A DNA stretch of 64,000 bases, taken from the NCBI GenBank assembly GCA_965222155.1, contig CBDCTH010000012.1:3080441-3144440 (forward strand), in the 5' to 3' direction. Positions 15,883 to 53,530 of the stretch are shown here, in pieces. This stretch comes from Gammaproteobacteria bacterium (GTDB taxonomy: Bacteria; Pseudomonadota; Gammaproteobacteria; Eutrophobiales; Eutrophobiaceae). Within the stretch, counting starts at the first letter, position 1, and every line of letters begins with the position of its first letter. The notes under the pieces were generated by a model, which was not told the DNA's origin, searched no databases, and was given only the letters and a program-made list of their open reading frames with translations. The position numbers were made by a program, and so were the translations under genes.

Positions 15883-16007
15883 TAGGGTATCTCGGTTTAT
15901 GTCACTTTGCCATTATCACAGACTGCGCTTGATGCGTTCATTGCGCACATCCATGTACGCAACCCTGCGGGCGGCTGTTGCCGTGCAAATCGGCTATCCT
16001 GCCGATT

Positions 16008-16166
16008 TGTCTCGCTTGTCTTTTTCCCGCCAGCGGGCACGTGCTCCCTCAACCAGAGAGACGACTATGCTTTCGGTCCCCGTATCAAGTACGGGGCAGG
16101 CTCCGGCACCCGCCGGCGGGAAAAATCCTGCGCAATCATCGCATCAATTGGCGAGATATACGGGTT
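16008..16166 (+). repeat. ~155-bp dispersed structured repeat, copy 1 (variant, preceded by an extra repeat module at 15950-16007)
   Basis: Shares ...cttgtcttttt..gggcacgtgctccctcaaccaga...ctatgctttcggtc...aaaaatcctgcgcaatcatcgcatc... with the copies at 20356-20510 and 41043-41196. Confidence 0.85.
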
Positions 16167-16264
16167 AAGATGGAACGCATTTTCTGTCCTGATTAATCAA
16201 TAGTAATAACCTGTTTCGCATATCCGTGATTATACGGGGTTTTCTACCCACACTGCTCAAAAAA

Positions 16265-17005
16265 CTATCTGCACACCGGGCATTCGGGATCTTTCGGCAG
16301 AATGGCGCTATGCCATTCCATCGCCATCACGTCTATCAGCAACAGCCGCCCCTGCAAGGTGTCGCCGAGGTCCATGATCAGTTTCATGGCTTCCGTCGCC
16401 TGAATGCTCCCGACGATACCCAGTAACGGCGCCAGTACGCCGTTGGCGGTGCAGGTCGCTTCAACTTCCGAGTCTTCCTTATACAGACAACGATAACAGG
16501 GAGAGGTTTCATGGTTCGGATTAAATACGCTGATTTGCGCCTCGAAGCGAATGGCTGCGGCAGAAACCAGGGGTGTACCCGTAGCGACGGATGCCCGGTT
16601 GACGGCGAAGCGGGTGGCGAAGTTATCACTCGCATCAACGATGATGTCCGCTTGCTCCGCATAGTTCTTCAATTCATCTTGCGTCAGCATGCGGTCGATC
16701 AAGGTCAGTTTGACGTCGGGATTCAGCGCCCTCAGGTGGTCTGCCCCGGACTCTACTTTCAGCCGTCCGATATCGGCGGTTTTATAGAGTATCTGGCGCT
16801 GCAGGTTGGACAGGTCTACCCTGTCGAAATCGACCAGGATGATATGTCCCACCCCGCCGGCAGCCAGGTAAATGGAAGCGGAGGAGCCCAGACCCCCGGC
16901 GCCTATCATCAGTACGGTTGCCTGCGCCAGGCGCAACTGCCCTTCCGCATCGATTTCGGGCAGCATGATCTGCCGGCTGTACCTTAACAGTTGTTCGTCG
17001 TTCAT
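16265..17005 (-). CDS. moeB: Molybdopterin-synthase adenylyltransferase (MoeB/ThiF family)
   Basis: MNDEQLLRYSRQIMLPEID..GQ..L...VL.IGAGGLGS motif and C-terminal CYRC...CPVC. Confidence 0.82.
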   Translation of the reverse strand: MNDEQLLRYSRQIMLPEIDAEGQLRLAQATVLMIGAGGLGSSASIYLAAGGVGHIILVDFDRVDLSNLQRQILYKTADIGRLKVESGADHLRALNPDVKLTLIDRMLTQDELKNYAEQADIIVDASDNFATRFAVNRASVATGTPLVSAAAIRFEAQISVFNPNHETSPCYRCLYKEDSEVEATCTANGVLAPLLGIVGSIQATEAMKLIMDLGDTLQGRLLLIDVMAMEWHSAILPKDPECPVCR

Positions 17006-17018
17006 AAGGGCAACCCGT

Positions 17019-17855
17019 TCATGGTCGTATGGCGAGGGTGAACCGCTCACGGCCAGCAAGGTCTTGCCGGGTGGCGATGTCCCGGTAATGGTTGAGCCTG
17101 AATTGCTGCCTGACAAAATTGCCCTGGTCGTGGGCATGCTCAATGATCATGAACCCGCCTGGATTGATATGCCTGAACCCGTTGATAACGATGATACGGA
17201 TACTGGCAGTGCCGTTATGTCCGCCATCCAGGGCGAGGCGCGGTTCGTGGCGGATTTCATCGGCAGGCAATGTGGAACTGGGAAAATCCACGTAGGGGGG
17301 ATTACATAAAATTGCATCAAAGCATCTGTTATCCAGGTTCCCGAACCAGTCCGACTGCCGGAATGATATATTGGCGACCTTGTTTGACGCGGCATTTACC
17401 CGGGCGACGGCCAGCGCGTCCGTGCTCAGGTCAACGGCCGTGACGGCGCAATGTGGGCGGGCGGCAGCCACGGCGACGGCAATCGCACCGCTGCCGGTCC
17501 CCAGGTCGAGGATACTGGCCCGGCTGTTACCGGGGATGAGCTCGAGCGCCGCTTCAACCAGTAATTCCGTCTCCGGCCTGGGTATCAGGGTATGACGGTT
17601 CACCCGGAATGCCATTGAGCGGAATTCCTTTACTCCGGTCAGGTAGGCGACGGGATAACCGGCGCGCCTGCTGTTCAGCAAGCGCTTGAAATCCGCGACT
17701 GAGGATTGCTGCGCCGTCAGTTCCGGATGGGCATACAAGCGGCTCCGGTCTGTCCCGAGAACGGTTGCCAGCAGCACCTCCGCGTCAAGCCGCGGGCTGT
17801 CCGAGGAGCGCAGTTGGTGCGCTGCGAAGCGTAATAATTGTCGCACCGTCAGCAT
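17019..17855 (-). CDS. prmC: Release-factor glutamine methyltransferase
   Basis: DLGTGSGAIAV SAM motif and NPPY catalytic motif. Lies directly downstream of prfA. Confidence 0.9.
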   Translation of the reverse strand: MLTVRQLLRFAAHQLRSSDSPRLDAEVLLATVLGTDRSRLYAHPELTAQQSSVADFKRLLNSRRAGYPVAYLTGVKEFRSMAFRVNRHTLIPRPETELLVEAALELIPGNSRASILDLGTGSGAIAVAVAAARPHCAVTAVDLSTDALAVARVNAASNKVANISFRQSDWFGNLDNRCFDAILCNPPYVDFPSSTLPADEIRHEPRLALDGGHNGTASIRIIVINGFRHINPGGFMIIEHAHDQGNFVRQQFRLNHYRDIATRQDLAGRERFTLAIRP

Positions 17856-17861
17856 CTGCCG

Positions 17862-18944
17862 TTACTCGCCAAGAGCTGCTAGCAGGTCGGCCTGGTGTTC
17901 GTTGATCAACGGGTCGACAATCATATCCAGTCCACCCTGCATGATCTCCTCCAACCGGTACAGGGTCAGGCCGATTCTGTGATCAGTCACTCTTCCCTGC
18001 GGAAAGTTGTAGGTCCTGATGCGCTCCGAGCGGTCTCCCGAACCAATCAGGTTACGCCTGTTTTCGGCTATTTCCGATGCTTGTTTCGCTTTTTCGGCAG
18101 AGAGCAGTTTCGCCCGCAGCAAGGCCATGGCCCGGGCGCGGTTTTTGTGCTGGGAGCGTTCGTCCTGGCATTCCACCACAATGCCACTGGGCAGGTGGGT
18201 GATGCGTATGGCGGAGTCCGTCTTGTTGACATGCTGGCCGCCGGCCCCGGACGCGCGGAAGGTGTCTGTCCTGAGATCGCCCGGGTTGATTTCGATTTCG
18301 TTTATTTCATCAGCTTCGGGCAGGACGGCAACAGTACAGGCTGAGGTATGGATACGGCCCTGGGACTCCGTTTCCGGTACCCGTTGGACCCGGTGTGCGC
18401 CGGACTCGAACTTCAGTCTCGAATAGGCGCCGTTGCCAAGGATGCGCATGATAATTGCCTTGTAGCCCTCCAGGTCGCTTTCCGTGGTACTCAACAACTC
18501 GACTTCCCAGTTTGATTTCTCGGCATAGCGGGAATACATCCGCATTAAATCGGCCGAGAACAGAGCTGCTTCCTCCCCGCCCGTCCCTGCCCGGATTTCC
18601 AGGAAGATATTACTTTTATCCGCCGGGTCCGTGGGCAGCAACAGTTTTTGCAATTCCTGATCCAGTGCCTCCAGCCGTTGCCGGGAGATATCGATTTCCT
18701 CGGTGGCCAGTTCCCGGATGTCCTTATCGCTGTCCTTCAGCATAGCCCTGGCATTATCCTGTGCCAGCAGGGTTGACCGGTAGTTTTTGAAACAGTCGAC
18801 GATCGGGCTGATTTCTGCCGCTTCCTTGTTCAGGTCACGGTAACGATTTTGATCATTGATGACATCCGGAACGGACAGCAGCGCATAGATCTCCTCCTGG
18901 CGTTCACACAGCTTTTCCAGCTTTTGTCGCAGACTGTCCTTCAT
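17862..18944 (-). CDS. prfA: Peptide chain release factor 1
   Basis: 360 aa with [23 protein letters not shown] (GGQ motif) and a PET/tripeptide region. Confidence 0.97.
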
Positions 18945-18978
18945 AAATCAAATCATTTCCAGGATGTGGAAATGCCTG

Positions 18979-20259
18979 TTACTCCTCGTCCCCGTTCTGC
19001 AAATCATCCGGCGGCAGGTTGTACAAATCCCGTACCACCCGCAGCATGGCCTGTTTTTGTGCTGCATCGAGCTTATGCAATTTGGCGCTTGGGGAGTGGA
19101 TCAATTTGTTGGTTAGCGTCCGGGTGGCCTCGTGAAGCAGGTCTTCGGGGGGCGCCCCCAGCCGTAATTTTTGCAGTGCCGACTCCAATACGTCTGCGCG
19201 AACTTCCTGTGCCTGGTTGCGCAGTGCCCGGATTGTCGCAACGGCATCCTGCGAATTAATCCAGGCCATGAACTGGGCAACCTCAGTGTCGATGATCTGT
19301 TCCGCCTGTCTTACCGCTTCCCGCCGGGTTTTTATATTGTCGTCGATAATACTTCTCAGGTCGTCCACGGTATACAGGTAAACGTCTTCCAGTTCACCCA
19401 CGTCGGGTTCCACGTCCCGCGGTACCGCAATGTCCAGGATAAACACGGGTTTGTGTTTACGTTGCAAAACAGCTGTCTCAATCATACTCCTGCTCAGCAG
19501 CGGCCGTCGGCTTGCAGTGGAGGAGATGACGATGTCTGCTTCGTCCAGGTGCCGGGGTAGTTCATCCAGCGTGATGGTGTATGCGGAATATTGCTGGGCC
19601 AGCTTCTGTGCTCTTTCCGGGGTACGGTTGGCAACAATCATTTTATGCAGGCCGTTGTCACGCAAGTGTTTTGCGGCGAGTTCTATGGTTTCGCCGGCGC
19701 CGATGAGCAATGCAGTCTGCCTGGACAGGTCACCAAATATCTGTCTGGCCAGACGCACTGCCGCGTAGGCGATTGACACCGGATGGTTCCCTATCGTGGT
19801 GTTGCTGCGTACGTCCTTGGCGACTTTGAACGAATGCTGGAACAGCCGGTTCAGCATTTTACCGATACTGCCTGCCTCTATGGCCGTCTGGTAAGCCCGT
19901 TTCAGTTGCCCCAGCACCTGAGGTTCTCCGACCACCATGGAGTCCAGCCCGCTGGCCACGCGCAACACGTGCTTGACCGCGCCGGCGCCGGGGTGAGTAT
20001 AGATGTAGCCGTGCAGTTCACTTTTGTTGCAACCGTGAAATCCGGAAAACCAGTCAATTGGTCGTTCCAGGTCTGCGGCGTTGAGGTTGCAGTAGATTTC
20101 GGTGCGGTTACAGGTGGACAGGATAGCCGCCTCATCGATGTCTGTGTCCCCGGTCAACTCGGTCAGGGCGTCAGACAACACGCCCTCGTCGAAGGTCACT
20201 TTTTCGCGTACCTCCAAGGGAGCAGTGGTATGGTTAAGACCAAAAGCCAGAAGCGCCAT
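18979..20259 (-). CDS. hemA: Glutamyl-tRNA reductase
   Basis: MALLAFGLNHTTAPLEVREKV...STCNRTEIY...; 426 aa. Confidence 0.95.
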   Translation of the reverse strand: MALLAFGLNHTTAPLEVREKVTFDEGVLSDALTELTGDTDIDEAAILSTCNRTEIYCNLNAADLERPIDWFSGFHGCNKSELHGYIYTHPGAGAVKHVLRVASGLDSMVVGEPQVLGQLKRAYQTAIEAGSIGKMLNRLFQHSFKVAKDVRSNTTIGNHPVSIAYAAVRLARQIFGDLSRQTALLIGAGETIELAAKHLRDNGLHKMIVANRTPERAQKLAQQYSAYTITLDELPRHLDEADIVISSTASRRPLLSRSMIETAVLQRKHKPVFILDIAVPRDVEPDVGELEDVYLYTVDDLRSIIDDNIKTRREAVRQAEQIIDTEVAQFMAWINSQDAVATIRALRNQAQEVRADVLESALQKLRLGAPPEDLLHEATRTLTNKLIHSPSAKLHKLDAAQKQAMLRVVRDLYNLPPDDLQNGDEE

Positions 20260-20355
20260 ATTATTAACTCGGATATTACGCCAGTTCGCTTGTCATTAAT
20301 GGAAAATTTAATGCTGTCAATAGGTTATTTACAGTGTATCACTTCTATCTTCGTT

Positions 20356-20510
20356 GCAAACTACGCTGGATGTGCCCTCGCTTGTCTTTTTTGCGCTGGC
20401 GGGCACGTGCTCCCTCAACCAGAATTACCACTATGCTTTCGGTCGCAGGCACCCGCCAGCGCAAAAAATCCTGCGCAATCATCGCATCCACTGGCGCAAT
20501 TTCCGAGTTT
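20356..20510 (+). repeat. ~155-bp dispersed structured repeat, copy 2
   Basis: Internal stem gcgctggcggg (20393-20403) pairs with cccgccagcgc (20452-20462). The element ends 49 nt before the TPR gene start. Confidence 0.9.
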
Positions 20511-20558
20511 ATAGTTTACCACGTTGTCGTATTTTCATTTCAGGATATAATCACGAAA

Positions 20559-22337
20559 ATGCGTAAAGAATCGGATATCAGGCCACTCGGCCACCTCGCA
20601 AGACTCGTGCTGCCGGTCGTTGTCACGCTTGTAATGGTGGCCTGTGCCCAAACTAACCTGAGTTCGATAGCGCCTGTTGAGCCCGAGACTATCCAGGAAG
20701 ATACCGGCAGGAATGCAAAGATCATCCGTGTTGAGCCGGTCCGCCCTAAGATCGCGTTAACCGAAGAGCTCCTCTATAAGTTGCTGATCGCCGAGATTGC
20801 AGGGCATAGGGGGTTGCTGGACATATCGATTCAGAATTACCTGGATCTGGCCCGTTCCACCAGAGACCACCGTATCGTTGAGCGGACCGCGCGCATCGCA
20901 GTTTACGCCCGTAACGATGCCGCCGCCCTGGCTGCAGCCCGGTTATGGGTGGAACTTGACCCGCGCAATCCCGATCCGCACCAGGTGCTGGCGGTCATGA
21001 AATTGCGCGCCGGTGACCTGGAACAGGCGGCGTTGCATTTGCAGGACATTTTTACTTATTCGGATGGAGAAGCGGATGAAAGGTTATGGATGATTGCCAA
21101 CCTGCTGGGAAGTGAAAATGACAAGGAAGCGGTATTGGACATTATGGAAAAACTGGTTATCTCCCAGAATAATTCTCCCGGCGCTCTGTATGCTTTTGCG
21201 CACGTCGCCGCCAAACTGGAAGACCTGGAGCGATCGCGGGAATTGCTTGAAGAGACACTCGCCCAGGCCCCGGACAATGATAACGCGGCGCTCAGCTATA
21301 TTTCCATACTGCAGCGCCTGGGCCGGGAACAGGAGGCATTGGCCTGGTTGGAACAGGAGTTGGCGCAACGCGAGGAGAACGACTTCAACCTGCGTATGGC
21401 TTATGCAAGACTATTGATGGAATTCAGGCAGTTCGACAAGGCGCTGGACCAATTTGAACTGCTGGCCGGACGGGAACCCGGGAATCCTGACGTGCTGTAT
21501 GCCCTGGGTCTGTTGTATCTGCAGAGCAATCGTCTGGATGATTCCGAGACGCTGTTCAAAAAATTATCGGAGCGGGAAGCCCTGACGGACGTCGCCAATT
21601 ATTACCTCGGGCGAATCGCGGAGGAAAAGCGGCGCTATGATGAAGCCTCTGCCTGGTATCAGGGCGTGCATAAAGGCGAACATTATTTTGATGCCCAGGT
21701 CAGGCTTGCCATGTTGCTGGCGAGGAAGGGAGAAGTGGAAGAGGCGCGCAACCACCTCAACTCCATACGGCAGCAGAGTGGACAACAAGCGCTGATCATT
21801 GTGCAGGCGGAAGGCGAATTGCTGATCCAGGCGCAACGTTATGAAGAAGCCATCGCGGTCTATACCAAAGCCCTGGGAGATCAATACGATGCCGACCTGT
21901 TGTACTCCCGGGCCATGGCGGCGGAAAAAATCGCCAGGCTGGATATGCTGGAAACGGACCTCAGGACAATACTCCGGCACGAACCGGACCACGCACAGGC
22001 AATGAATGCATTAGGATACACCCTTGCAGATGCCACCGACCGTCTCACCGAAGCCTATGAGTTGATCAAGAAAGCCTTGGAACTCCGCCCCTCGGATTTC
22101 TATATCCTGGACAGCATGGGCTGGGTCCTGTACCGGCTGGGACGGCTGGATGAGGCCGTTGAGTACCTGAGAAAGGCCTTGAACATAAGACAGGATCCGG
22201 AAATTGCCGCCCACCTGGGAGAGGTACTATGGGTCAGGGGTGAGCGGGAACAGGCAAAAGAGGTCTGGGAAGCGGCCTTGAAACAGACGCCCGAAGATAC
22301 CCGCCTGCTGGACGTGATTGAACATTTCAAGCCTTGA
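20559..22337 (+). CDS. TPR-repeat lipoprotein (conserved neighbour of lolB)
   Basis: Lipobox-like ...TLVMVACAQ followed by many TPR-like repeats. Its position upstream of lolB-ispE matches the arrangement in Pseudomonas-type genomes. Confidence 0.78.
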   Translation: MRKESDIRPLGHLARLVLPVVVTLVMVACAQTNLSSIAPVEPETIQEDTGRNAKIIRVEPVRPKIALTEELLYKLLIAEIAGHRGLLDISIQNYLDLARSTRDHRIVERTARIAVYARNDAAALAAARLWVELDPRNPDPHQVLAVMKLRAGDLEQAALHLQDIFTYSDGEADERLWMIANLLGSENDKEAVLDIMEKLVISQNNSPGALYAFAHVAAKLEDLERSRELLEETLAQAPDNDNAALSYISILQRLGREQEALAWLEQELAQREENDFNLRMAYARLLMEFRQFDKALDQFELLAGREPGNPDVLYALGLLYLQSNRLDDSETLFKKLSEREALTDVANYYLGRIAEEKRRYDEASAWYQGVHKGEHYFDAQVRLAMLLARKGEVEEARNHLNSIRQQSGQQALIIVQAEGELLIQAQRYEEAIAVYTKALGDQYDADLLYSRAMAAEKIARLDMLETDLRTILRHEPDHAQAMNALGYTLADATDRLTEAYELIKKALELRPSDFYILDSMGWVLYRLGRLDEAVEYLRKALNIRQDPEIAAHLGEVLWVRGEREQAKEVWEAALKQTPEDTRLLDVIEHFKP

Positions 22338-22446
22338 AGTTAAAACGACCGTGCCGGCCAGAATCCCCTGCCTGCCATTCCCGCGCAAGTTTACCCCTGT
22401 ATGCTTTGAACAGGGACGGGAATCCATGATGTGTCAAAGTCGCGCC

Positions 22447-22471
22447 GGGGACAGATTTCAAATCTGTCCCC
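22447..22471. repeat. 25-nt palindromic repeat, copy H1
   Basis: ggggacagatttcaaatctgtcccc, between the TPR gene and lolB. Confidence 0.9.
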
Positions 22472-22503
22472 TACTCTGTTTTCGGATTCCCGCGTGCGCG
22501 GGA

Positions 22504-23103
22504 ATGGCACTGTACCGCAGTCTCCCGGCATTTGTGTTGCTGGCTTTCACGCTGTCGGGTTGTGTCCAGGCGCCGGTTGAAAACAGGGTTAAACCCTCAT
22601 GGGAAACCCGCAGGGATGAATTAATGCGGCTGGAAACCTGGGATCTCAAAGGCAGGATAGCCGTGCGCACATATAATGATTCCGGATCAGGTTCCCTGTA
22701 TTGGGAACAGCGCAAGGATGACTATGACATCCGGGTGATAGCTTCATTCTCCGGCGGCGTCTATGAACTGTCCGGCGCCGCCGGCATTGTCTCATTACGC
22801 ACCCCGGACAAGAGTATGTTGCAGGCTGAGGATGCGGAAACCCTGCTGCGGCAGGCAGCGGGTTGGTATTTCCCGGTATCAGACCTGGTCTACTGGATAA
22901 GAGGGCTCCCGGCGCCGGCCTTGCAGGTTGACCGGATGCTGCTGGACGCTGAAAACAGGCTGAGCGCCCTGAGCCAGGGCGGCTGGTCGATACGTTACAA
23001 AAACTACACCGGGATTGACGGAACCAGTATGCCGGCGCGGCTTGACCTGGAAAACGATCAGGTGCGCGTGCGCCTGTCCATCAGGGAATGGAGCCTGCCC
23101 TGA
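22504..23103 (+). CDS. lolB: Outer-membrane lipoprotein LolB
   Basis: Lipobox LTLSGC, ~200 aa, and a position between the TPR gene and ispE. Confidence 0.82.
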   Translation: MALYRSLPAFVLLAFTLSGCVQAPVENRVKPSWETRRDELMRLETWDLKGRIAVRTYNDSGSGSLYWEQRKDDYDIRVIASFSGGVYELSGAAGIVSLRTPDKSMLQAEDAETLLRQAAGWYFPVSDLVYWIRGLPAPALQVDRMLLDAENRLSALSQGGWSIRYKNYTGIDGTSMPARLDLENDQVRVRLSIREWSLP

Positions 23104-23140
23104 TGGCGTCATCCGACCGCACACGGGTATACTCACCCGA

Positions 23141-24007
23141 ATGACATCACAACCCTGGCCGGCCCCGGCGAAAATAAACCATTTTTTACACGTCATCGGT
23201 CGCCGGGACGACGGTTACCACCTGTTACAGACCCTGTTCCAGTTTCTGGACCTGGCCGATGAGTTGCGGATTACCGTGAGCGCGGATGGCCGGATCAGGT
23301 GCCTGCGCAATTACCACCAGGTGGACGAGCAGGATGACCTGGTGGTCAAAGCGGCGAAATTGCTACAGGAGATCGGCGGCAGCGCCAGGGGTGCGCAAAT
23401 CCACGTGGATAAAAGAATCCCCATCGGCGGGGGACTGGGAGGCGGCAGTTCCGATGCCGCGACGACGCTGGTGGCCCTGAATTGCCTGTGGGAAACCGGC
23501 CTGACCATGGAACAACTCGCCGAAGCAGGATCGAGCCTCGGGGCTGACGTGCCGGTATTTGTACACGGCTTCGCTGCCTGGGGAGAGGGCGTGGGAGAGA
23601 TACTGGAACCCGTAGAACTGCCGGAAAACTGGTATTTCCTGATCTATCCCGATACCCCGGTTGTTACCGCGGACATATTCAGTGCGCCGGGGTTGATGCG
23701 CGCAACGCCCAGGGTCACGTTGCGCGACTTCCATCAGGGAAGCTGTCACAATGACTGCGAACCGGTAGTACGCCAGACCTGCCCCGAAGTGGCCGCCGCG
23801 CTGGACTGGCTCAACGCCCGCGCCGAAGCCCGGCTATCCGGCACGGGCGCAAGCATCTTTGCCGCGTTTCCGGAAAAGGAAGAAGCCGTAACACTCCTTG
23901 AACAACTACCGGCCAGATGGCAGGGGTTTGTCGCCATGGGGTGCAATCGCTCCCCGCTATCAGACAGGCTTGCCCGGGAGAACCAGGGCAGGATAAAAAC
24001 CGGCTAG
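23141..24007 (+). CDS. ispE: 4-diphosphocytidyl-2-C-methyl-D-erythritol kinase
   Basis: WPAPAKINHFLHVIGRRDDGYH and IPIGGGLGGGSSDAATTL (GHMP kinase motif). Confidence 0.92.
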   Translation: MTSQPWPAPAKINHFLHVIGRRDDGYHLLQTLFQFLDLADELRITVSADGRIRCLRNYHQVDEQDDLVVKAAKLLQEIGGSARGAQIHVDKRIPIGGGLGGGSSDAATTLVALNCLWETGLTMEQLAEAGSSLGADVPVFVHGFAAWGEGVGEILEPVELPENWYFLIYPDTPVVTADIFSAPGLMRATPRVTLRDFHQGSCHNDCEPVVRQTCPEVAAALDWLNARAEARLSGTGASIFAAFPEKEEAVTLLEQLPARWQGFVAMGCNRSPLSDRLARENQGRIKTG

Positions 24008-24026
24008 CGCCCGCCGTTCATGGTAG

Positions 24027-24452
24027 TTCACCAAGTCCCGTGCCCGGCACAGCAATGACACTGCCCTGGTGGAATGCAAGAACGGCCATGTCGTGCGTAA
24101 GCTCCTGGGCCATGCCCATATCCCGCAGCGCTGGGCCAGTCTGCTCAATGACTTTCACCGCCGGCACCTCAATCCGTACGTCAACGACCACCGGCCCTGC
24201 CTGTTCCCGGTCACGGTCACCGACCCGACCGGGAAACAACGAAAACGCTATCCCTACGCGTCCCTGATGACACCGTATGAGACACTCAAATCCCTCACCG
24301 ATACAAAGACGCACTTGAAACCGGGCGTACGCTTTGACAGACTGGACACCATCGCTTACCGGCTCCGCGACAACGCGGCCGCCGAGGCCTTGCAACAGTC
24401 GCGCCGGCAACGCTTTACCAGCATGTATGAACAGGCGCAGAAACGGGTTTGA
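24027..24452 (+). pseudogene. 3' fragment of an rve/DDE-type transposase (5' part deleted)
   Basis: The frame opens just after the ispE stop: FTKSRARHSNDTALVECKNGHVVRKLLGHAHIPQRWASLLNDFHRRHLNPYVNDHRPC...TPYETLKSL. This looks like the C-terminal region of integrase-core transposases, and no N-terminal or catalytic part is present. Confidence 0.55.
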
Positions 24453-24520
24453 GATGAGTCAGAATCACTCTCCCTTCAGGCTCAGTCCGAATTGGAAAAC
24501 ACTGGAAATGCAAGCCGAAA

Positions 24521-24620
24521 CAGCCGTTCCCGCTAACGCCCTCCCTGCCAGAGGAATATGCCTCCTTATGGTCAGAGTATGCCCGGGACTCCTGGGGGAC
24601 AGATTTAAATCTGTCCCCCC
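24521..24620. repeat. ~100-bp repeat element (contains palindrome H2 at 24594-24619); inverted partner at 33814-33914
   Basis: The outer 20 nt cagccgttcccgctaacgcc and the inner 34 nt gactcctgggggacagatttaaatctgtcccccc recur as a reverse complement at 33895-33914 and 33814-33847. Confidence 0.85.
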
Positions 24621-24665
24621 CAAAAGCTAACATGATAAAGCTTGTCCCGTACACCGATACGGGAC

Positions 24666-24759
24666 CGGACAGATTATGTGTTACAGATGCGGACAGTTTA
24701 TGTGTTGACAACAAACCAGGACAGTACAGTTGTGATGACGCCCGGAACAGATTATCATT
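24666..24759 (+). repeat. Four ~16-nt direct repeats spaced ~25 bp apart, upstream of the RTX gene
   Basis: cggacagattatgtgtt (24666-82), cggacagtttatgtgtt (24690-706), ggacagtacagttgtg (24719-34), ggaacagattatcatt (24744-59). They share GGACAGATT with the half-site of the 25-nt palindrome. Confidence 0.8.
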
Positions 24760-24827
24760 CCGTATCAACACAAGCACAACAGGGGGCGAACCCCGCTACC
24801 GTTGAGTATTGAACCGGGAGGCAATCT

Positions 24828-25157
24828 ATGAAGAGGATCAGTGACGCCGCTCAGACAGATCCCGAACACGGGGCATCCTGTTGTTGTGCCGGCTGTTTGG
24901 CAATAAATCTGGAAGAGCGAGGAGCCCAATCTCCAGACTCTCAAAGCGCCCGAGGTGCTCCAGCCCCTCAAAACGCCCCGGCCGCTGCGGAGCAGCTGCC
25001 CCAATGGGGCGTGCTCGCCTCGGACGCCTATGACGAGATCGCCGACTTCATGGGTAAGTCCGCTCGCTTTCCGATTGAGCCCGGCGGTGAGATCACGGTG
25101 AACCTCACCGATCTGACCGCTGGGCCCTGGCGGCCTGGGAGGCGGTGGCGAACCTGA
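24828..25157 (+). pseudogene. Segment 1 of a serralysin-like RTX giant gene (N-terminal region, frame 0)
   Basis: RBS gggagg lies upstream. The sequence ...FPIEPGGEITVNLTDLTA parallels FDVEPGGTLTADITALTPAGQQLARWALEVW of the paralog at 49111-53037. Homology then continues in another frame from ~25121. Confidence 0.7.
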
Positions 25158-27853
25158 CCTTTCGGGAAGTGGAAGACCACGCCAATATCAACTTCAAAGA
25201 TGGAGAAAGTGGTCACCCCACGATAACTAACCTCAAAAGAGAGAACGGGTTCGTCTCGCTCGACCTGCACTTTCCGATTGGATTCGTCAATAAGTCTGGC
25301 GACAGGCCCGGCGACTGGACGTTCATTGCTCACCTCCACGAGCTCGGCCATGCGTTGGGCTTGCCCCATGCCGGCCCCTACAATGGCTATCCTATTCCTA
25401 CGTACGGGCTCGATAACCGGTTTGCGGCAGACTCCTACCAGACGTCGGTCATGTCGTACTTCACTCAGACCAGAAACACCGGCATCGATGCGAGCAAGGC
25501 CTATCCGGTCACGCCGATGATGGCGGACATCCTGGCGATTCAGAAGCTGTATGGCGTCCCCGAGACCAACCCCGGGGATACCGTGTATGGCTACCAGTCC
25601 AACGTCGACGGCTACCTGGGGGAAGTCTTCGCGGCAATCACCGAGCAGGACGGTGAGCTTGATGGGCCGGTGGCACTGACGCTGTTCGACAGCGGCGGGG
25701 AGGACCGGCTGGACCTGCGCACGGATGAGACGGACCAGCGGGTGGACCTGCGCCCGGAAGGCGTCTCGGACGTGTACGGGCTGACGGGCAACTGGCTGAT
25801 AGCGCGGGGCACGGTGATTGAGAACCTGGTGGCCGGTCAGGGCGATGACCAGGTGATTGCGAATGCGGCGGTGAACGAGTTGGACGGTGGCCCGGGCAGT
25901 GACACGGTATCCTATGTGGGCTCGGATGCCGGGGTACGGGTGGACCTGGATGCGGGGACGGGTGTGGGCGGTCATGCTCAGGGCGACGCGCTCAGCAACT
26001 TTGAGCACGTGGTGGGCTCGGCACACGCTGACGAGTTGCGCGGCGATGAGCTGGCTAACCGGCTGGCGGGGGGCGCCGGCGACGATACGTTGTACGGCAA
26101 CGCGGGTGCTGACACGCTGGACGGGGGCGCGGGTAACGACCAGCTGTACGGTCACGAGGGCGACGACCATCTGCGCGGCGATGGTGGCGCTGACGTACTC
26201 GAAGGAGGCGCCGGGGCGGACACGCTGGAGGGCGGCAGTGGGGAGAACAGCGCAGCCTACCGGGGCTCGGACGTCGGGGTGGAGGTAAACCTGGACAGCG
26301 GAGTGGTGTCAGGCGGTCATGCTGCGGGCGACAGGCTCATCAGCATCCAGCACCTTATCGGCTCGGCCTATGCCGACACGCTGACGGGGGATGCGGACGC
26401 CAACCGGCTGGCGGGCGGGGCCGGGGATGACCGGCTGTACGGTAGCGCAGGGGACGATGTGCTGGTGGGCGGGGCCGGCGCCGACACGCTGGGCGGCGGC
26501 GCCGGGGCGGACTATCTGGATGGTGGTGGCGGCCCTGACCGGCTGGCCGGCGGCGCGGGGGATGACACACTGGAAGGGGGCCTGGGCAAGGACACACTGG
26601 ATGGCGGCGCGGGATATGATACTGCAACCTACGCAGGCTCTGCGGCGGGGGTACGGATTGACCTGAAGGCAGGCACGTTCCAGGGGGGTGATGCCGCCGG
26701 GGATGCGCTCACTGATATTGAGCGGATTGTCGGCTCGGCACAGGGCGATGTGCTGTGGGGAAGTGACGGGACAGACCACCTGGTCGGGGGCGCTGGGGAC
26801 GATGAGTTAGACGGTCGTCCGGGTGATGACACGCTGGCCGGCGGGGCCGGGGCGGACACATTGGACGGCGGCGCCGGGGACGACACGCTGCGCGGCGGTG
26901 ACGGGGACGATGTACTGGCCGGGGGCGCCGGCGATGATAAGGTGTACGGTGAAGACGGCGATGACCTGGTCAAAGGCGGTCCGGGGGCGGACACGCTGGC
27001 CGGGGCGGGTGGGGACGACACCTTGTCCTATGGGGACTCTGATGAGGGTGTGAAAGTGGATTTGTATTCTCATACGGCGTCAGGCGGTCATGCCGAGGGC
27101 GACGGAATTCGCGGCTTTCAGCATCTGGTGGGTTCGGCGCAGGCTGACGAGCTGCGGGGCGACTCTGGCGCCAACGAGTTGTGGGGGGGCGCCGGGGACG
27201 ATGAGTTGCGCGGCGAAGCTGGCGACGACACCCTCGACGGTGGCGAGGGTAAAGACCAGCTGTACGGTAACGACGGTAATGACCGACTGGACGGAGGCTT
27301 GAACAACGACCGGCTGTGGGGCGGCGATGGCAACGATCGGCTGGACGGAGGCTTGAACAACGACAAGCTGTGGGGCGACGGCGGCAACGATCGGCTGGAC
27401 GGGGGAGCAGGCTATGATCGACTGAAAGGAGGCCGCGGTGATGACACGCTCCATGGGGGCGCCGGTAACGATCAGCTCTACGGGGGCACCGGAGCGGACA
27501 CCGCGTCCTACACCGACTCGGACGCCGGCGTGCATGTGGACTTACACGCCGGGCGCGCCACGGGCGGTCATGCCCAGGGCGATAAACTGACGGACATTGA
27601 GAATCTGCGCGGTTCCGCGCATGACGATGGGCTGCGCGGGGACGGCGGCGCCAACCGGTTGTGGGGCGGTGCCGGGGATGACAAGCTGGTGGGGTGGTAC
27701 AGACACCCTGGAGGGAGGAGCCGGGGCGGACACCTTCGGATACGTCATGGGGGCGGACTCGAGCGTGGCCAACCCGGACCGGATTGTAGACTTCTCAGGG
27801 AGTGGCGGGGACGGCGACATGTTGAGCATACCTGGCAAGCGCTTTATCGGTAG
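25091..27853 (+). pseudogene. Segment 2: M10 (serralysin-type) zinc protease domain plus RTX nonapeptide blocks (frame 2)
   Basis: WALAAWEAVANLTFREV..., zinc motif HELGHALGLPH (25337-25369), Met-turn SVMSYF, then many GGxGxDxL repeats. Meaningful similarity ends at ~27694, and the remainder up to the stop is out-of-frame read-through. Confidence 0.75.
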
Positions 27854-38288: not shown

Positions 38289-38852
38289 ATGGATATTGGG
38301 GAACCGATAAAATCACTTGGCACAGTGGACATGGAACCATTGCGCGCACGCATCCTCGCCCAGGAAGAGTCCGCCTGGTATGAACAGAAACTGCGCCAGA
38401 ACGAATATGACGTTCACCGCTATACGGAATCCATCGTGCTGGTTTTTACCGATGGGTCCGGCTGGCCGAATATCGAAGTCAGCAAGCAGCCCGGTTGGGG
38501 GCGGCTGGTCGGGGAGGCCATGCCGTTGATGCACGGGATTATCGGCAGCTTTTATCCGGCCGGCGGTACCATAATCCGCGCCATGGCGGCGAAATTACTT
38601 GCCGGCGGGAAAATCAAGCCCCACCGGGATGCGCATCCGTCATTTCACTACAGTCACCGTATCCATGTTCCCATTACCACCAATCCCCGGGTCCGGTTCA
38701 TGCTCGACGGGCGCCCGTACCGGCTGGAGGTGGGGCAGGCCTACGAAATCAACAACCAGAAAGTACACAGCGTGATGAACAAGGGCACACAGGACAGGAT
38801 TACGTTTATCTTCGATTACGTGCCGCCCGGCGGCCATGCTACGGCGCAGTAA
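38289..38852 (+). CDS. Aspartyl/asparaginyl beta-hydroxylase-family (cupin) protein
   Basis: ...GGKIKPHRDAHPSFHYSHRIHVPITTNPRVRFMLDGRPYRLEVGQAYEINNQKVHSVMNKG..R..FIFDY matches the Asp_Arg_Hydrox pattern. Confidence 0.68.
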   Translation: MDIGEPIKSLGTVDMEPLRARILAQEESAWYEQKLRQNEYDVHRYTESIVLVFTDGSGWPNIEVSKQPGWGRLVGEAMPLMHGIIGSFYPAGGTIIRAMAAKLLAGGKIKPHRDAHPSFHYSHRIHVPITTNPRVRFMLDGRPYRLEVGQAYEINNQKVHSVMNKGTQDRITFIFDYVPPGGHATAQ

Positions 38853-38912
38853 CGCGGGTTGCATAATCGCCGTACAGGACAGGTAAAAAGATGAGCCGGG
38901 GAGTTTATTCAT

Positions 38913-39113
38913 TTTTGCGGGCACACAACCTCCGAACCCTTGACCAGAGGCCATGAACTGTGATCCCTGCCCAATGTCATCATTATACCCCATGTCGCAT
39001 ATATGACTGACCGGAGAATCGAATGCAACCGGCTGGTTGTCACGGAAAATCTGTGCCGCTATATCAATGGCGAGCGCCTGCTGAATGTTGTGGATATCGA
39101 CCGGGGTTATTGA
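38913..39113 (+). pseudogene. C-terminal fragment of a D-isomer-specific 2-hydroxyacid dehydrogenase with an in-frame stop
   Basis: My own translation: ...HTTSEPLTRGHEL*SLPNVIIIPHVAYMTDRRIECNRLVVTENLCRYINGERLLNVVD.... It resembles the family C-terminus EPL..HPL..LPNVI.TPH.A..T.....V.EN......GE.L.N.V. Confidence 0.4.
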
Positions 39114-39133
39114 TCGGAAACCGTATACAGCGC

Positions 39134-40072
39134 ATGCCTGAAAACAAGCCGTATATGCCAAGGTTAATTGCCACCTCCGTAGTGCGCGGCAGCGAGCAGG
39201 GGGACAGCCACGGCGGGATCTTTAGCGTGGATTTCGAGAAGCAGGAAGCATTCCAGCATGTTGACTGGAACACCTCGGAGATTGATTTTTCCGGACGCGG
39301 CTGGGACCGGGGCCTGCGCGGCATCGAGTTTCATAACGACGAGATTTACATTGCCGCCAGCGATGAGTTGTTCGTCTATGACCAGGATTTTCAGATCCGC
39401 CGCTCTTTCAGGAACCCTTATCTCAAACATTGCCATGAGATTTGCAAAAAAGACAACCTGCTGTTTCTGACTTCTACGGGTTATGACAGTATTCTGGTCT
39501 TCGACCTGTCGGCTGAGGAATTTATCTGGGGCCTGTGTCTGGAAAAACAGTATTCCCGGTGGCAGACTCAACGATTTGACCCCCGTTCCACTGAAGGTCC
39601 GGCCCTGGTCAACAACCTGCACCTGAACATGGTTTCCGTACATGATACCGGTGTCTATTTCAGTGGCCTACGCACTGGCGCCCTGCTGCATTTCGGAAAA
39701 GATTTCGAGGTGTCCGAAATCTGTAATTTACCGGCCGGCAATCATAACGCCCGGCCGTTCAGGGATGGGGTCCTGTTCAATGACACAAAATCTGATTGCG
39801 TCCGCTATGTTGGCCGCAACGGTGGTGACCAGGCGTTCAGGATCAGGCGCTACCCGGAACAAGAAATCCGGTTTGCCGGCATTGACGATTCTAAAATAGC
39901 CCGCCAGGGCTTCGGTCGAGGTCTGTGCCCCTTATCGGACAGGTTTATTGCGGGCGGCTCCTCGCCTTCCACGATCAGCGTATACGATCTCTACTCAGGT
40001 AAAATGGTTGTCAGCGTCAATCTGTCCATGGATATCAGGAATGCGATCCACGGCCTGGAAGTCTGGCCGTAG
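39134..40072 (+). CDS. Hypothetical protein, repeat/beta-propeller-like (family uncertain)
   Basis: 312-aa ORF from atg 39134 (MPENKPYMPRLIATSVVRGSEQGDSHGGIF...) with no recognisable catalytic motif. Coding is supported only by its length and the absence of competing features. Confidence 0.45.
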   Translation: MPENKPYMPRLIATSVVRGSEQGDSHGGIFSVDFEKQEAFQHVDWNTSEIDFSGRGWDRGLRGIEFHNDEIYIAASDELFVYDQDFQIRRSFRNPYLKHCHEICKKDNLLFLTSTGYDSILVFDLSAEEFIWGLCLEKQYSRWQTQRFDPRSTEGPALVNNLHLNMVSVHDTGVYFSGLRTGALLHFGKDFEVSEICNLPAGNHNARPFRDGVLFNDTKSDCVRYVGRNGGDQAFRIRRYPEQEIRFAGIDDSKIARQGFGRGLCPLSDRFIAGGSSPSTISVYDLYSGKMVVSVNLSMDIRNAIHGLEVWP

Positions 40073-40134
40073 GCCTAGCCCGGATTTCTCACCAAGCCGC
40101 TTGTTGCCAGCGGATATGAATATCCCATGCATAA

Positions 40135-40159
40135 GGGGACGGATTTGAAATCCGTCCCC
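40135..40159. repeat. 25-nt palindromic repeat, copy H5 (G variant)
   Basis: ggggacggatttgaaatccgtcccc. Together with its flanks it is the reverse complement of the H6 region (53521-53561). Confidence 0.9.
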
Positions 40160-40168
40160 GGAGAGATG

Positions 40169-40357
40169 CATTGCGCCCATCCCCCTGCTCAACTCCATAC
40201 AGAGCTTGCCCCTGCGGTTGTAAGCAGGGGGGCAGGCTCTGGGCGCAACCCTGCGGGCGGCTGTCGCCGTGCATAAATTCGCCTGGAGCTGTTGAACAGT
40301 CGAGCCGCGCGAGACTGGCCCCGACGGGGCAAAGTACAGGACGTACTTTGTAAATCG
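40169..40357 (-). repeat. 189-bp IS5-like remnant, direct repeat of 36258-36446
   Basis: cattgcgcccatccccctgctcaactccatacagagcttgcccctgcggttgtaagcagggggg...gtactttgtaaatcg is shared with only a few mismatches. Confidence 0.85.
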
Positions 40358-40512
40358 GCTATCCTGCCGATTTGTCAGCGCAGCGCCTGCCTGCCGCCTG
40401 CCGTTCACGCTATGGTGCGCCATAGCGTGGCCGTTAATCGGTTCCGGGATGGTGAAAATCAGCACGCACAGTGCGAGCAGACCGGCCAGTAAGCCGAGTA
40501 GTATAAGGATGG

Positions 40513-40718
40513 CAGGGCAAACGCATACTTTTGAATTCAGATGTTTTTGCCCGATTCCGTCATTCTGGCGCAGGCCAGAATCCAGTGAATAACCCTTCAT
40601 TACCCTGAGCCTGCGCTGTTGTTTGACTGGATGCTGGCATTCGCCAGCATGACGGGCGGTGTTGTCCGGTTGGTTTCCTGTCGTCTGCAACAGAATCCAA
40701 AAGTATGCGGTTGCCCTG
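40513..40718. mobile_element. 206-bp MITE, copy 2 (10-bp target-site duplication)
   Basis: Same element as 36873-37078, with one mismatch in the left TIR. The TSD ataaggatgg is at 40503-40512 and 40719-40728. Confidence 0.85.
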
Positions 40719-40863
40719 ATAAGGATGGGACGCATTGATTTTTTATTCCGTGAACCGTTTCAATCTATGCTATGATGCATAATTTACTGCCGTTCTTCGA
40801 TGAAATCATTCTGATTATTTTATAACGTTATACAATTACGCGCCGAAGCTCGCGGATCTTGAA

Positions 40864-40938
40864 TGGGGCGTAGCCAAGTGGTAAGGCACAGGGTTTTGAT
40901 CCCTGCATTCCCAGGTTCGAATCCTGGCGCCCCAGCCA
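40864..40938 (+). tRNA. tRNA-Gln (anticodon UUG)
   Basis: Cloverleaf folded by hand. The acceptor tggggcg pairs with cgcccca. The anticodon stem caggg/ccctg encloses loop ttTTGat. The T-arm is ccagg-ttcgaat-cctgg, and the 3' end is an encoded CCA. Confidence 0.92.
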
Positions 40939-41042
40939 AATAACCCGGATATTGCGCCAGTCCGCTTGGAGGAATACTAAAATTCATCTGACATCAGATA
41001 GTTATATGGTAAATTCTAAATTTTGTAGCTTTACAAACTACG

Positions 41043-41196
41043 CTGGATGCGCCCTCACTTGTCTTTTTTACGCTGACGGGTACGTGCTCCCTCAACCAGA
41101 GTACCAGCTATGCTTTTGGTCGCATGCACCCGTCAGCGTAAAAAATCCTACGTGATCTTCGCATCCACTGGTGCAATATCCGGGTTAACAATCAGC
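41043..41196 (+). repeat. ~155-bp dispersed structured repeat, copy 3
   Basis: Internal stem acgctgacgggt (41079-41090) pairs with acccgtcagcgt (41137-41148). The element ends 12 nt before the prs start. Confidence 0.9.
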
Positions 41197-53266: not shown

Positions 53267-53530
53267 TAGAATTATCCGCGCTAACTGGCAGGATGCCCAA
53301 GGTCGATACCCGGAGCAATACCCGCATACGGCAGGTCGCCGCGGCCATTGCTGCACAGGCAACCCCTGTCCCTTGGCGAAGGTGAGACTTCATTGTTACT
53401 TGCTCTCTTGCTCAATGGAGATGGATTTTAATCCTAGACAAGTGTGCTGATAAAGTCAAAATTTTGTATGAGTCCCACCAGGCGATGCGATGATTGCGCC
53501 GGATTTTTGATGTGCGCCTTCCATCTCTCC

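What the first reader, a model, noticed from the sequence alone, without database searches (positions are those of the whole stretch)
16008..41196. ~155-bp intergenic repeat family whose internal stem is kept by compensatory substitutions
The copies at 16008-16166, 20356-20510 and 41043-41196 are all on the + strand. Two of them end just upstream of gene starts: 49 nt before the TPR gene and 12 nt before prs. They share a conserved core (gtgctccctcaaccaga..ctatgcttt.ggtc) held in the loop of a long stem. Between copy 2 and copy 3 the stem differs at two positions on each arm, and both changes are compensated. The arms are gcgctgGcggg / cccgCcagcgc in copy 2 and AcgctgAcggg / cccgTcagcgT in copy 3. 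A C.A mismatch in copy 2 also becomes a T-A pair in copy 3. Copy 1 uses a different arm sequence (cccgccagcggg / cccgccggcggg) that still pairs at 11/12 positions, and it carries an extra inserted repeat module at 15950-16007. Covariation of this kind suggests selection on structure, either RNA or cruciform DNA, rather than neutral decay of a dead MITE.
Basis: seen in the sequence. Interest (0 to 1): 0.6.

Follow-up and report, generated by a model that had tools for sequence, protein, structure and literature searches.

The report
Active hairpin-forming miniature transposon family
The 155-base repeat is the right-hand part of a roughly 245-base non-coding jumping element that shares its ends with a resident IS1380-type insertion sequence; its hairpin arms really do stay complementary through paired changes, but it is selfish DNA of a familiar kind and nothing shows it is a gene regulator.

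Summary
All three copies are at the stated places, and the compensated stem differences are as described.

The unit is incomplete, though. It is the right ~60% of a ~245-nt element with these features:
- 21-nt terminal inverted repeats, TA|RCCCGSATWTCTCACCAG...CTGGTGAGAWATSCGGGY|TA.
- A TA target duplication, shown by exact filled/empty site pairs.
- About 100 copies in this 4.55-Mb genome, plus copies in many related uncultured Gammaproteobacteria.
- The same termini as resident IS1380-family insertion sequences.

It is a live MITE. A relative that is 96% identical lacks all six copies found in the ribosomal-protein gene cluster.

Covariation is strong. 98% of cells are paired, and 28 of 61 pairs show double changes (0/500 shuffles reach this; slid controls give 3-5). 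This covers the terminal repeats and three internal helices.

Orientation relative to genes is random (30 same vs 26 opposite). No Rfam family matches and no ORF is conserved.

Mismatches are asymmetric (A.C 53 vs G.T 21 events), which points to the opposite strand as the one that folds.

Orthologous copies differ by swapped or nested hairpin modules.

Best reading: a new member of the MITE kind, whose fold is kept because it is needed for the element's own propagation, or is repaired while folded. It does not look like a host RNA regulator.

The scan had noted related elements before, on other DNA.

The parts
15826..16167 (+). Copy 1, full element including both TA flanks (342 nt). It is a composite carrying two inserted hairpin modules.
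   Evidence: nhmmer model 9-123 plus 126-263; sequence.
15937..16010 (+). 74-nt three-hairpin module ('M72') inserted in copy 1 between GATGCG and CTCGCTTG.
   Evidence: Comparison with uninterrupted copies. The M72 family has 122 hits in the genome.
16078..16104 (+). Small hairpin insert ('Hs2', CCCCGTATCAAGTACGGGGCAGGCT) in copy 1. Coordinates are approximate.
   Evidence: Alignment gap against copies 2 and 3. The same insert is present in one member and absent from the other of an orthologous pair.
20265..20511 (+). Copy 2, full canonical element including TA flanks. It lies between divergent hemA (start codon 20257-20259, minus strand) and the TPR gene (start 20559).
20387..20403 (+). Copy 2, 5' arm of the long stem (TTTTTTGCGCTGGCGGG).
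20452..20468 (+). Copy 2, 3' arm of the long stem (CCCGCCAGCGCAAAAAA).
40941..41187 (+). Copy 3, full canonical element including TA flanks. It is inserted between tRNA-Gln (ends at 40935) and prs (starts at 41208).
   Evidence: The site is empty in four relatives and filled in G014.
41064..41080 (+). Copy 3, 5' arm of the long stem (TTTTTTACGCTGACGGG).
41129..41145 (+). Copy 3, 3' arm of the long stem (CCCGTCAGCGTAAAAAA).
40070..40133 (+). Truncated left end of another copy (model positions 9-72), interrupted by other hairpin repeats.
53473..53513 (-). Fragment of a right end (model positions 208-248).

Best explanation
**What it is.** The repeat is a non-autonomous transposon (MITE) of about 245 bp.

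**How it moves.** It carries the terminal inverted repeats of an IS1380-family insertion sequence that lives in the same genome. Shown: the shared ends, the TA target duplication and recent mobility. Inferred: that the IS1380-family transposase moves it in trans.

**Anatomy.**
- The left ~90 nt are A+T-rich and variable. They keep an IHF-like site that also occurs at the same distance from the IS left end.
- The two ends, two short helices and a 17-bp stem are complementary in nearly every copy, although their sequences differ between sublineages.

**Why the fold is kept (inferred).** Insertions are young, but sublineages are old and diverged. The complementarity must therefore be maintained along the lineages of copies that go on to transpose. 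I conclude that the element has to fold for its own propagation. The fold could be a cruciform or single-stranded DNA that brings the two ends of a very short element together. Alternatively, mismatches may be repaired while the arms are paired.

**Other dynamics.** Hairpin modules inside the element are also gained, lost or swapped between copies, which adds 'concerted' arm changes.

**Effects on genes.** Effects on neighbouring genes are side effects of insertion.
For: **Ends and copy number**
- 21-nt terminal inverted repeats.
- About 104 left ends, 78 chained elements and 42-45 canonical copies in the genome.

**Target duplication and mobility**
- TA duplication is shown by exact filled/empty pairs: L015 and L058 against the own genome, and ribosomal-cluster sites against G014 and G032.
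- All six ribosomal-cluster insertions are absent from G032 (96% identity) and G014.
- Most G032 insertions are empty sites in the own genome.

**Link to the IS1380 family**
- IS1380-family ISs (369 bits against a cut-off of 180) end in CTAGCCCGCATATCTCACAAAC or CTAGCCCGGATATCTCACCAAT. These match the MITE terminal repeats.

**Covariation**
- 98.0% of cells are paired.
- 28 of 61 pairs have double changes, against 14.5 in shuffles (0/500) and 3-5 when the partner is slid.
- The long stem has 42 distinct haplotypes; 26 have no mismatch once G.T wobble pairs are allowed. Mean mismatches are 0.67, against 3.1 after random re-pairing of arms.
- About 111 double changes are inferred on a tree.
- Stem arms and the left arm vary while the flanking blocks are nearly invariant.

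**Against a host RNA role**
- Random orientation to genes and to replication.
- No Rfam match.
- No conserved ORF.
Against: **The transposase link is weak in places**
- The two young IS1380-family copies carry an in-frame TAG at codon 410.
- No test shows that this transposase moves the MITE.
- The MITE interior is unrelated to the IS interior.
- From memory of ISfinder, IS1380-family members usually make 4-5 bp duplications rather than TA. I did not check this.

**Nothing shows directly that DNA, rather than RNA, folds**
- The A.C > G.T asymmetry (53 vs 21 events; not mutational) needs a strand-specific single-stranded form. A double-strand cut-and-paste pathway does not obviously provide one.

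**Other weak points**
- One orthologous pair shows two compensated pair changes in a 24-nt hairpin while the rest of the element is about 97% identical. That looks like segment replacement rather than selection on point mutations.
- The tree used for event counts was built from the same short alignment.
Confidence: 0.6

Rival explanations
1. Complementarity is kept without selection. When the arms pair in single-stranded DNA, for example at replication forks, template switching or mismatch repair copies one arm onto the other (quasipalindrome correction). Ectopic gene conversion among about 100 copies also swaps whole hairpins. Both processes give one-step 'compensated' changes.
For: - Orthologous copies in G032 and the own genome differ by whole modules.
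- In the same pair, a hairpin has two compensated pair changes within otherwise ~97% identical sequence.
- Modules occur in many contexts and in both orientations.
- Most haplotypes are free of mismatches (26 of 42, counting G.T wobble pairs as paired) rather than merely stable.
Against: - Conversion tracts that cover only one arm would break pairing as often as keep it. That matters most for the terminal repeats, which lie 200 nt apart, yet they covary as strongly as the internal stem.
- Unbiased templated correction does not explain the strand asymmetry of the remaining mismatches.
- The non-palindromic core and asymmetric flanks stay unsymmetrised and highly conserved.
Confidence: 0.2
2. 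The fold matters as RNA. Copies are read through as parts of mRNAs, many of them inside operons. The long hairpins are processed or stabilised by RNases, as for Correia and ERIC elements. Copies or lineages that lose the fold are removed by host-level selection.
For: - Many copies sit within a few nucleotides of flanking genes inside operons, including six in the ribosomal-protein cluster, all co-oriented with the genes.
- The consensus folds at -116 kcal/mol with z = -10.3.
- No terminator-like sites were found.
- There is precedent: RNase III cleaves Correia terminal repeats and RNase E acts on ERIC (PMC10969869), and bcr1 shows compensatory changes at the RNA level (PMC3184786).
Against: - Orientation to genes is random overall (30 vs 26), so both strands are transcribed about equally. 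The mismatch asymmetry nevertheless follows the element's own strand.
- Insertions are too young for in-situ host selection to have shaped them.
- About 100 weakly selected copies would be hard to police one by one.
- No RNA data could be obtained.
Confidence: 0.13
3. One reading: the 155-nt unit is a cis-regulatory leader or small RNA gene that the host uses, placed upstream of genes in a fixed orientation.
For: - Copies 2 and 3 end 49 nt and 12 nt before gene starts in the same orientation.
- A promoter-like site lies inside copy 3.
- Covariation is strong.
Against: - There is no orientation preference over 78 elements.
- The sites are empty in close relatives with the same genes.
- The unit is only part of a transposon with terminal repeats and a target duplication.
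- No Rfam family matches.
- A promoter-like site lies between copy 2 and its downstream gene.
Confidence: 0.05

Closest known systems
Correia / NEMIS (CREE) elements of Neisseria
   Same: - Short (100-155 bp), non-coding and present in many copies.
- Terminal inverted repeats of about 26 nt and insertion at TA.
- An internal IHF site.
- The whole element folds into a long hairpin.
- Insertion polymorphism between close strains.
(PMC2649163, PMC10969869)
   Different: - There is no sequence similarity, and this element is longer (245 bp).
- The Correia mobilising transposase is unknown, whereas here the ends match a resident IS1380-family IS.
- The IHF-like site deviates from the consensus in most copies.
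- Promoter activity and RNase III cleavage were not tested here.
- Nested hairpin modules are not a Correia feature that I know of.
IS1380-family insertion sequences (such as ISEcp1 and ISPme1) and their deletion derivatives
   Same: - The terminal 19-21 nt match the genome's own IS1380-family copies.
- Both share a GAGTTATCA / IHF-like motif about 60 nt from the left end.
- Both are flanked by TA.
   Different: - The interior of the MITE is unrelated to the IS, so it is not a simple internal deletion.
- The family is usually described with 4-5 bp duplications (from memory of ISfinder, not checked). Here TA is duplicated.
bcr1 repeats of the Bacillus cereus group, and ERIC sequences of enterobacteria
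   Same: - Intergenic mobile repeats of about 127-155 nt.
- Their predicted fold is kept by compensatory base changes (bcr1: PMC3184786).
- From memory, ERIC also occurs in longer forms with inserts at fixed internal sites.
   Different: - Sequences and hosts are unrelated.
- bcr1 has 5-bp direct repeats, and it is known to be transcribed.
- No transcription data exist here.
REP / REPIN elements mobilised by RAYT (Y1) transposases
   Same: - Hairpin repeats whose arms stay complementary.
- Nested and clustered arrangements.
- A strand-specific single-stranded DNA form would explain the mismatch asymmetry.
   Different: - The genome's two RAYT-like genes are flanked by other palindromes (GGGGACACAATACTTAATT and GGGGTCAGGTCGCACAATGCACA), not by this element or its modules.
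- This element has long terminal repeats and a TA duplication, which REPINs lack.
RUP, BOX and SPRITE of Streptococcus pneumoniae
   Same: - Small non-coding mobile repeats that insert into one another and cluster (PMC10969869).
- From memory, RUP is a TA-targeting derivative of an IS (IS630-Spn1).
   Different: - The parent IS family differs. The IS630-family ISs of this genome have different ends (TA|GTACCGTTTCAATTTAATTCTGA).
- Structure-preserving covariation has not been reported for these elements, to my knowledge.

Membership tests
MITE (miniature inverted-repeat transposable element) | Terminal inverted repeats | tested here: met
   21-nt terminal repeats RCCCGSATWTCTCACCAG / CTGGTGAGAWATSCGGGY in canonical copies.
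MITE (miniature inverted-repeat transposable element) | Target-site duplication shown by filled and empty sites | tested here: met
   TA is duplicated. Exact pairs: L015 and L058 against the own genome, and ribosomal-cluster sites 3-5 against G014 and G032.
MITE (miniature inverted-repeat transposable element) | Small, non-coding, many copies, insertion polymorphism | tested here: met
   Size 245-604 nt, about 100 loci. The open frame is broken in about 8 of 41 copies. Sites differ between genomes that are 96% identical.
MITE (miniature inverted-repeat transposable element) | Shares ends with an autonomous IS that could mobilise it | tested here: met
   The IS1380-family ISs of the same genome have matching terminal repeats. 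Mobilisation itself was not tested.
IS1380-family derivative | Target duplication typical of the family (4-5 bp, from memory of ISfinder) | tested here: not met
   Only TA is duplicated. The resident IS copies are also flanked by TA on both sides, so the MITE and the IS agree with each other.
IS1380-family derivative | Interior derived from the IS by deletion | tested here: not met
   blastn finds only the terminal 17-19 nt in common, plus a short shared motif near the left end.
Correia/CREE-like element | Insertion at TA with inverted repeats enclosing a core | tested here: met
Correia/CREE-like element | Functional IHF-binding site | tested here: inconclusive
   WATCARNNNNTTR is perfect in 9 of 78 elements and has at most one mismatch in 42 of 78, at a fixed position. 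Background is 0.3% per 110 nt. Binding was not tested.
Correia/CREE-like element | Sequence homology to the Correia repeat | not tested
   No Correia sequence was compared. The resemblance is in organisation only.
Correia/CREE-like element | RNase III processing of the hairpin in transcripts; end-borne promoters | not testable with these tools
The promoter scan gave one weak site in copy 3.
REP/REPIN (RAYT-mobilised) | The cognate RAYT gene is flanked by the repeat | tested here: not met
   The Y1 genes at C12:2623939 and C12:1985766 are flanked by different palindromes.
IS630-derived MITE (RUP-like) | Terminal repeats match an IS630-family IS | tested here: not met
   The four IS630-family copies end in TA|GTACCGTTTCAATTTAATTCTGA.
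Described structured RNA family (Rfam 15) | Match to a covariance model | tested here: not met
   The gathering-threshold scan of the window finds only a tRNA. Permissive scans of copies 1 and 2 give nothing below E = 0.2.

The most novel reading that the evidence does not exclude
Folding is an obligatory, strand-specific step in the movement of this IS1380-type miniature element. In this reading it moves through, or is licensed by, a single-stranded or cruciform form. Its hairpin loops are also the landing sites of still smaller hairpin micro-elements: the 73-nt 'M72' and the 25-29-nt 'Hs' units. These move without terminal repeats or target duplications, by a mechanism not yet described. Together they would form a nested system of structure-dependent mobile DNA.
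Probability: 0.2. Interest if true: 0.65.

Novelty: new member of a known kind. Interest (0 to 1): 0.38.

Why it matters
- **A clean natural data set.** Dozens of self-complementary stem variants, recent insertions and empty sites in close relatives allow one question to be asked directly: does a bacterial MITE need to fold in order to move?
- **A candidate transposase.** The data link the element to an IS1380-family transposase. The comparable Correia elements still lack a known transposase.
- **A caution for annotation.** In these uncultured, apparently sponge- and coral-associated Gammaproteobacteria, strong covariation next to genes can come from selfish DNA rather than from a riboswitch or small RNA.
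- **Relevance to genome evolution.** The element sits inside essential operons, with six copies in the ribosomal-protein cluster, often exactly on stop codons. This bears on how these symbiont genomes evolve.

Tried and rejected
- **Coding.** The frame that runs through the right half is GC-driven and broken in about 8 of 41 copies, so it is not a gene.
- **Known RNA.** There is no Rfam match at gathering or permissive thresholds.
- **IS630 parent.** This was my first guess because of the TA duplication. The IS630-family ends differ. One MITE merely abuts an IS630 copy at a shared TA.
- **RAYT/REP system.** The Y1 genes have other flanking palindromes.
- **Autonomous copy with the MITE interior.** None was found. 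No pair of ends encloses a transposase-sized insert in the own genome or in 59 loci from relatives. One apparent 1.8-kb case is two truncated copies around a VapBC-like pair.
The inner base belongs to the element, so only TA is duplicated.
- **Orientation bias to genes or to replication.** None was found.
- **Mutational origin of the A.C excess.** Rejected, because unpaired columns show a nearly symmetric spectrum.
- **Strand test on M72 modules.** I tried to see whether the mismatch asymmetry follows the host element. There were too few mismatches: 7 vs 3 and 2 vs 4.
- **Empty site for the IS itself.** The region is rearranged in relatives, so the result was unusable.


Full report
**1. The observation**

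Copy 2 has TTTTTTGCGCTGGCGGG...CCCGCCAGCGCAAAAAA. Copy 3 has TTTTTTACGCTGACGGG...CCCGTCAGCGTAAAAAA. Both differences are compensated. Copy 1 pairs at all but one position.

Pfam confirms prs at 41208-42161 and a TPR protein from 20559. hemA lies on the other strand and ends (at its start codon) at 20259.

**2. The unit is larger than described**

The window lies in a 4.55-Mb, 12-contig genome. nhmmer finds about 200 hits there.

Flanks anchored on the hits show about 90 further conserved bases on the left. These begin with the reverse complement of the right end.

The full consensus is about 245 nt: TA|GCCCGGATTTCTCACCAG ... CTGGTGAGAAATCCGGGC|TA. It folds at -116 kcal/mol, with z = -10.3.

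The genome holds:
- about 104 left ends;
- 78 elements that can be chained end to end (245-604 nt);
- 42-45 canonical copies.

Full extents in the window are 15826-16167, 20265-20511 and 40941-41187. Fragments lie at 40070-40133 and 53473-53513.

**3. It is mobile, and recently so**

- A 24-mer of the core occurs in 59 loci from about ten uncultured Gammaproteobacteria MAG records. Several isolate names hint at sponge or coral metagenomes, but I did not verify the sources.
- The tRNA-Gln|prs site is empty in four relatives and filled in G014.
- The ribosomal-protein cluster of this genome carries six insertions, all co-oriented with the genes. Every one is missing from G032 (96% identical over the cluster) and from G014.
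- Conversely, most insertions in G032 are empty sites here.

Exact filled/empty pairs show a TA duplication. One example is CTACCCTGT-TA-[ACCCGC..GCGGGT]-TA-GTGTATCC against CTACCCTGT-TA-GTGTATCC. The base next to TA belongs to the element, so the duplication is not a four-base YTAR.

Several insertions sit exactly on the TAA or TAG stop codon of the upstream gene.

**4. Whose ends?**

I first suspected the IS630 family because of the TA duplication. The genome's four IS630-family copies end differently.

- NF033539 finds IS1380-family ISs at 369 bits against a cut-off of 180.
- Two 1776-bp copies, 99.55% identical, end in CTAGCCCGCATATCTCACAAAC on both sides.
- A diverged third copy ends in CTAGCCCGGATATCTCACCAAT.
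- These are the MITE's terminal repeats, again with TA outside.
- A GAGTTATCA / IHF-like motif lies about 60 nt from the left end in both the IS and the MITE.
- The interiors are unrelated.
- The two young IS copies carry an in-frame TAG at codon 410, downstream of the YREK motif.

No element with the MITE interior encloses a transposase.

**5. Covariation**

*Profile alignment.* I used 58 distinct canonical copies (own genome plus relatives), aligned to a sequence profile that was not fitted to structure. 97.5% of cells pair, against 33-44% when the partner is slid. Double-change cells number 282, against 8-17.

*Tool check.* On a MAFFT alignment of 31 copies from at least ten genomes:
- 98.0% of cells are paired;
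- 28 of 61 pairs have changes on both sides, against a shuffled mean of 14.5 (0/500);
- slid controls give 3-5 such pairs;
- the covariation score is 0.253, against 0.093.

*Which helices.* All four outer helices take part:
- the terminal repeats (20 pairs, 11 with double changes);
- TGATGC/GCATCA;
- TCGC/GCGA;
- the 17-bp long stem.

The inner core pairs never vary, so they say nothing either way.

*Long-stem haplotypes.* The long stem has 42 distinct haplotypes among the 58 copies. Twenty-six have no mismatch once G.T wobble pairs are allowed. Mean mismatches are 0.67, against 3.1 after random re-pairing of arms.

*Tree-based counts.* Parsimony on a tree infers about 111 double changes. The tree comes from the same short alignment, so the number is rough.

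*Where variation lies.* Stem arms and the left arm are variable, while the blocks around and inside the long stem are almost invariant. The sequence is constrained in the blocks. In the stems only the pairing is constrained.

**6. Which strand, DNA or RNA?**

Orientation relative to my own crude gene calls is random: 30 co-oriented, 26 anti-oriented, 14 between divergent genes and 7 between convergent genes. Orientation relative to replication (from GC skew) is 36:24, which is not significant.

The uncompensated mismatches are nevertheless asymmetric in the element's own frame. There are 53 events to A.C against 21 to G.T. Unpaired columns have a nearly symmetric spectrum.

On the complementary strand those A.C mismatches are G.T (G.U) wobbles. 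The strand preference belongs to the element and does not depend on where a copy sits in the genome. I treat this as moderate evidence only.

No terminator-like sites were found. A promoter-like site lies between copy 2 and the TPR gene. No Rfam family matches. The open frame through the right half is not conserved.

**7. Modules**

Longer copies carry nested inserts:
- a 73-74-nt three-hairpin unit ('M72'), with 122 hits, found in both orientations. It sits at a few fixed points, including the symmetric TTTTT|GCC at the foot of each arm of the long stem;
- 25-29-nt units ('Hs') built as CCC-hairpin-GGG + GCAGGCT, which nest inside each other's loops.

M72 also stands alone in unique DNA. Its hairpins covary strongly.

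Same-site (orthologous) copies in G032 and this genome differ by the presence of Hs units and of an M72. In one pair a 24-nt hairpin differs by two fully compensated pairs, while the rest of the element is about 97% identical. That points to replacement of whole hairpins, by conversion or re-insertion, as one source of 'concerted' changes.

I could not define a target duplication or a mobilising enzyme for these units. The two RAYT-like genes are flanked by other palindromes.

**8. Explanation**

- *Shown:* a TA-duplicating, recently active MITE with IS1380-type ends, and robust structure-preserving covariation in four helices.
- *Inferred:* mobilisation in trans by the IS1380-family transposase.
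- *Inferred:* the fold is needed for propagation, or is repaired while folded. The reasoning is that insertions are young while sublineages are old, so complementarity is maintained along the lineages that keep transposing.

Rivals:
- Non-selective symmetrisation and conversion (0.2).
- RNA-level selection in read-through transcripts, as for Correia and ERIC (0.13).
- A host regulatory RNA (0.05).

**9. Comparison with known elements**

- Correia/CREE is closest in organisation. It has a TA target, inverted repeats around a core, an IHF site and a long hairpin, and its transposase is unknown (PMC2649163, PMC10969869).
- bcr1 is the precedent for compensatory changes in a mobile repeat (PMC3184786).
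- BOX, RUP and SPRITE are the precedent for small repeats that insert into one another (PMC10969869).

The family is not a member of any of these by sequence. It is a new MITE family of an ordinary kind. It stands out for how strictly the arms covary and for its nested hairpin modules. Earlier notes of this scan had already seen related elements in this genome and in other genomes.

Noticed in passing
window 15937-16010; genome-wide, e.g. G000:C4:125666-125738, C12:748225-748297, C1:47967-48039: A 73-74-nt three-hairpin unit ('M72': T(C/G)AT.GCGC..-hairpin, CCCTKCGG, hairpin, CAAAT-hairpin-ATTTG) has 122 hits. About half lie inside the MITE at a few fixed points, in both orientations. Others stand alone in unique DNA. 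All three hairpins covary. It has no terminal repeats and no clear target duplication.
   Followed up: partly
window ~16078-16104; L035 vs G000:C4:593527-593903; L049 vs G000:C12:2507413-2507794: Tiny units of 25-29 nt (CCC-hairpin-GGG + GCAGGCT) nest inside the loops of other hairpins, in either orientation. They are present in one member and absent from the other of same-site copies in genomes that are 96% identical. They are therefore gained or lost in situ.
   Followed up: partly
G000:C12:2344500-2359000 (L079): The ribosomal-protein gene cluster carries six insertions of the MITE (one a ~490-nt composite), all co-oriented with the genes. All six are absent from relatives, the closest being 96% identical. 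Several lie exactly on the upstream gene's stop codon. In two cases the stop reads TGA where relatives have TAA or TAG.
   Followed up: partly
G000:C4:218567-220342 and G000:C12 ~1242093-1243868: Two 99.55%-identical IS1380-family ISs both carry the same in-frame TAG at codon 410 of the transposase (W to stop in LRLWLS). The broken copy has apparently still been duplicated. G014 holds a ~460-nt internal-deletion derivative of this IS.
   Followed up: partly
window 20257-20267: The left end of copy 2 lies only 5 nt from the predicted hemA start codon on the opposite strand. The ribosome-binding site and promoter of hemA would therefore have to lie inside the element, or the true start is further in.
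   Followed up: no
G000:C9:18866-20611: An IS630-family IS and a MITE copy abut at a single shared TA (..AAAGGGTAC TA GCCCGCATTTC..). Both elements use TA targets.
   Followed up: partly
G000:C12:768905-768970, C12:2700605-2700701, C4:235723-235770: Another MITE-like family, with ends ATTTGGGGTCAGAGTAAAAATAC...GTATTTTTACTCTGACCCCAAAT, repeatedly interrupts copies of this element.
   Followed up: no
G000:C12:2623039-2625162 and C12:1984866-1986989: Two RAYT-like Y1 transposase genes are each flanked by their own palindromic repeats (GGGGACACAATACTTAATT and GGGGTCAGGTCGCACAATGCACA). These repeat families are separate from the one studied here.
   Followed up: partly
G000:C12:36532-36604, 2186714-2186786, 3368963-3369035: Three paralogous copies of what looks, by eye, like an IS5-family transposase relic carry an M72 unit at the same internal position. 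The interrupted IS was therefore copied after the insertion.
   Followed up: no
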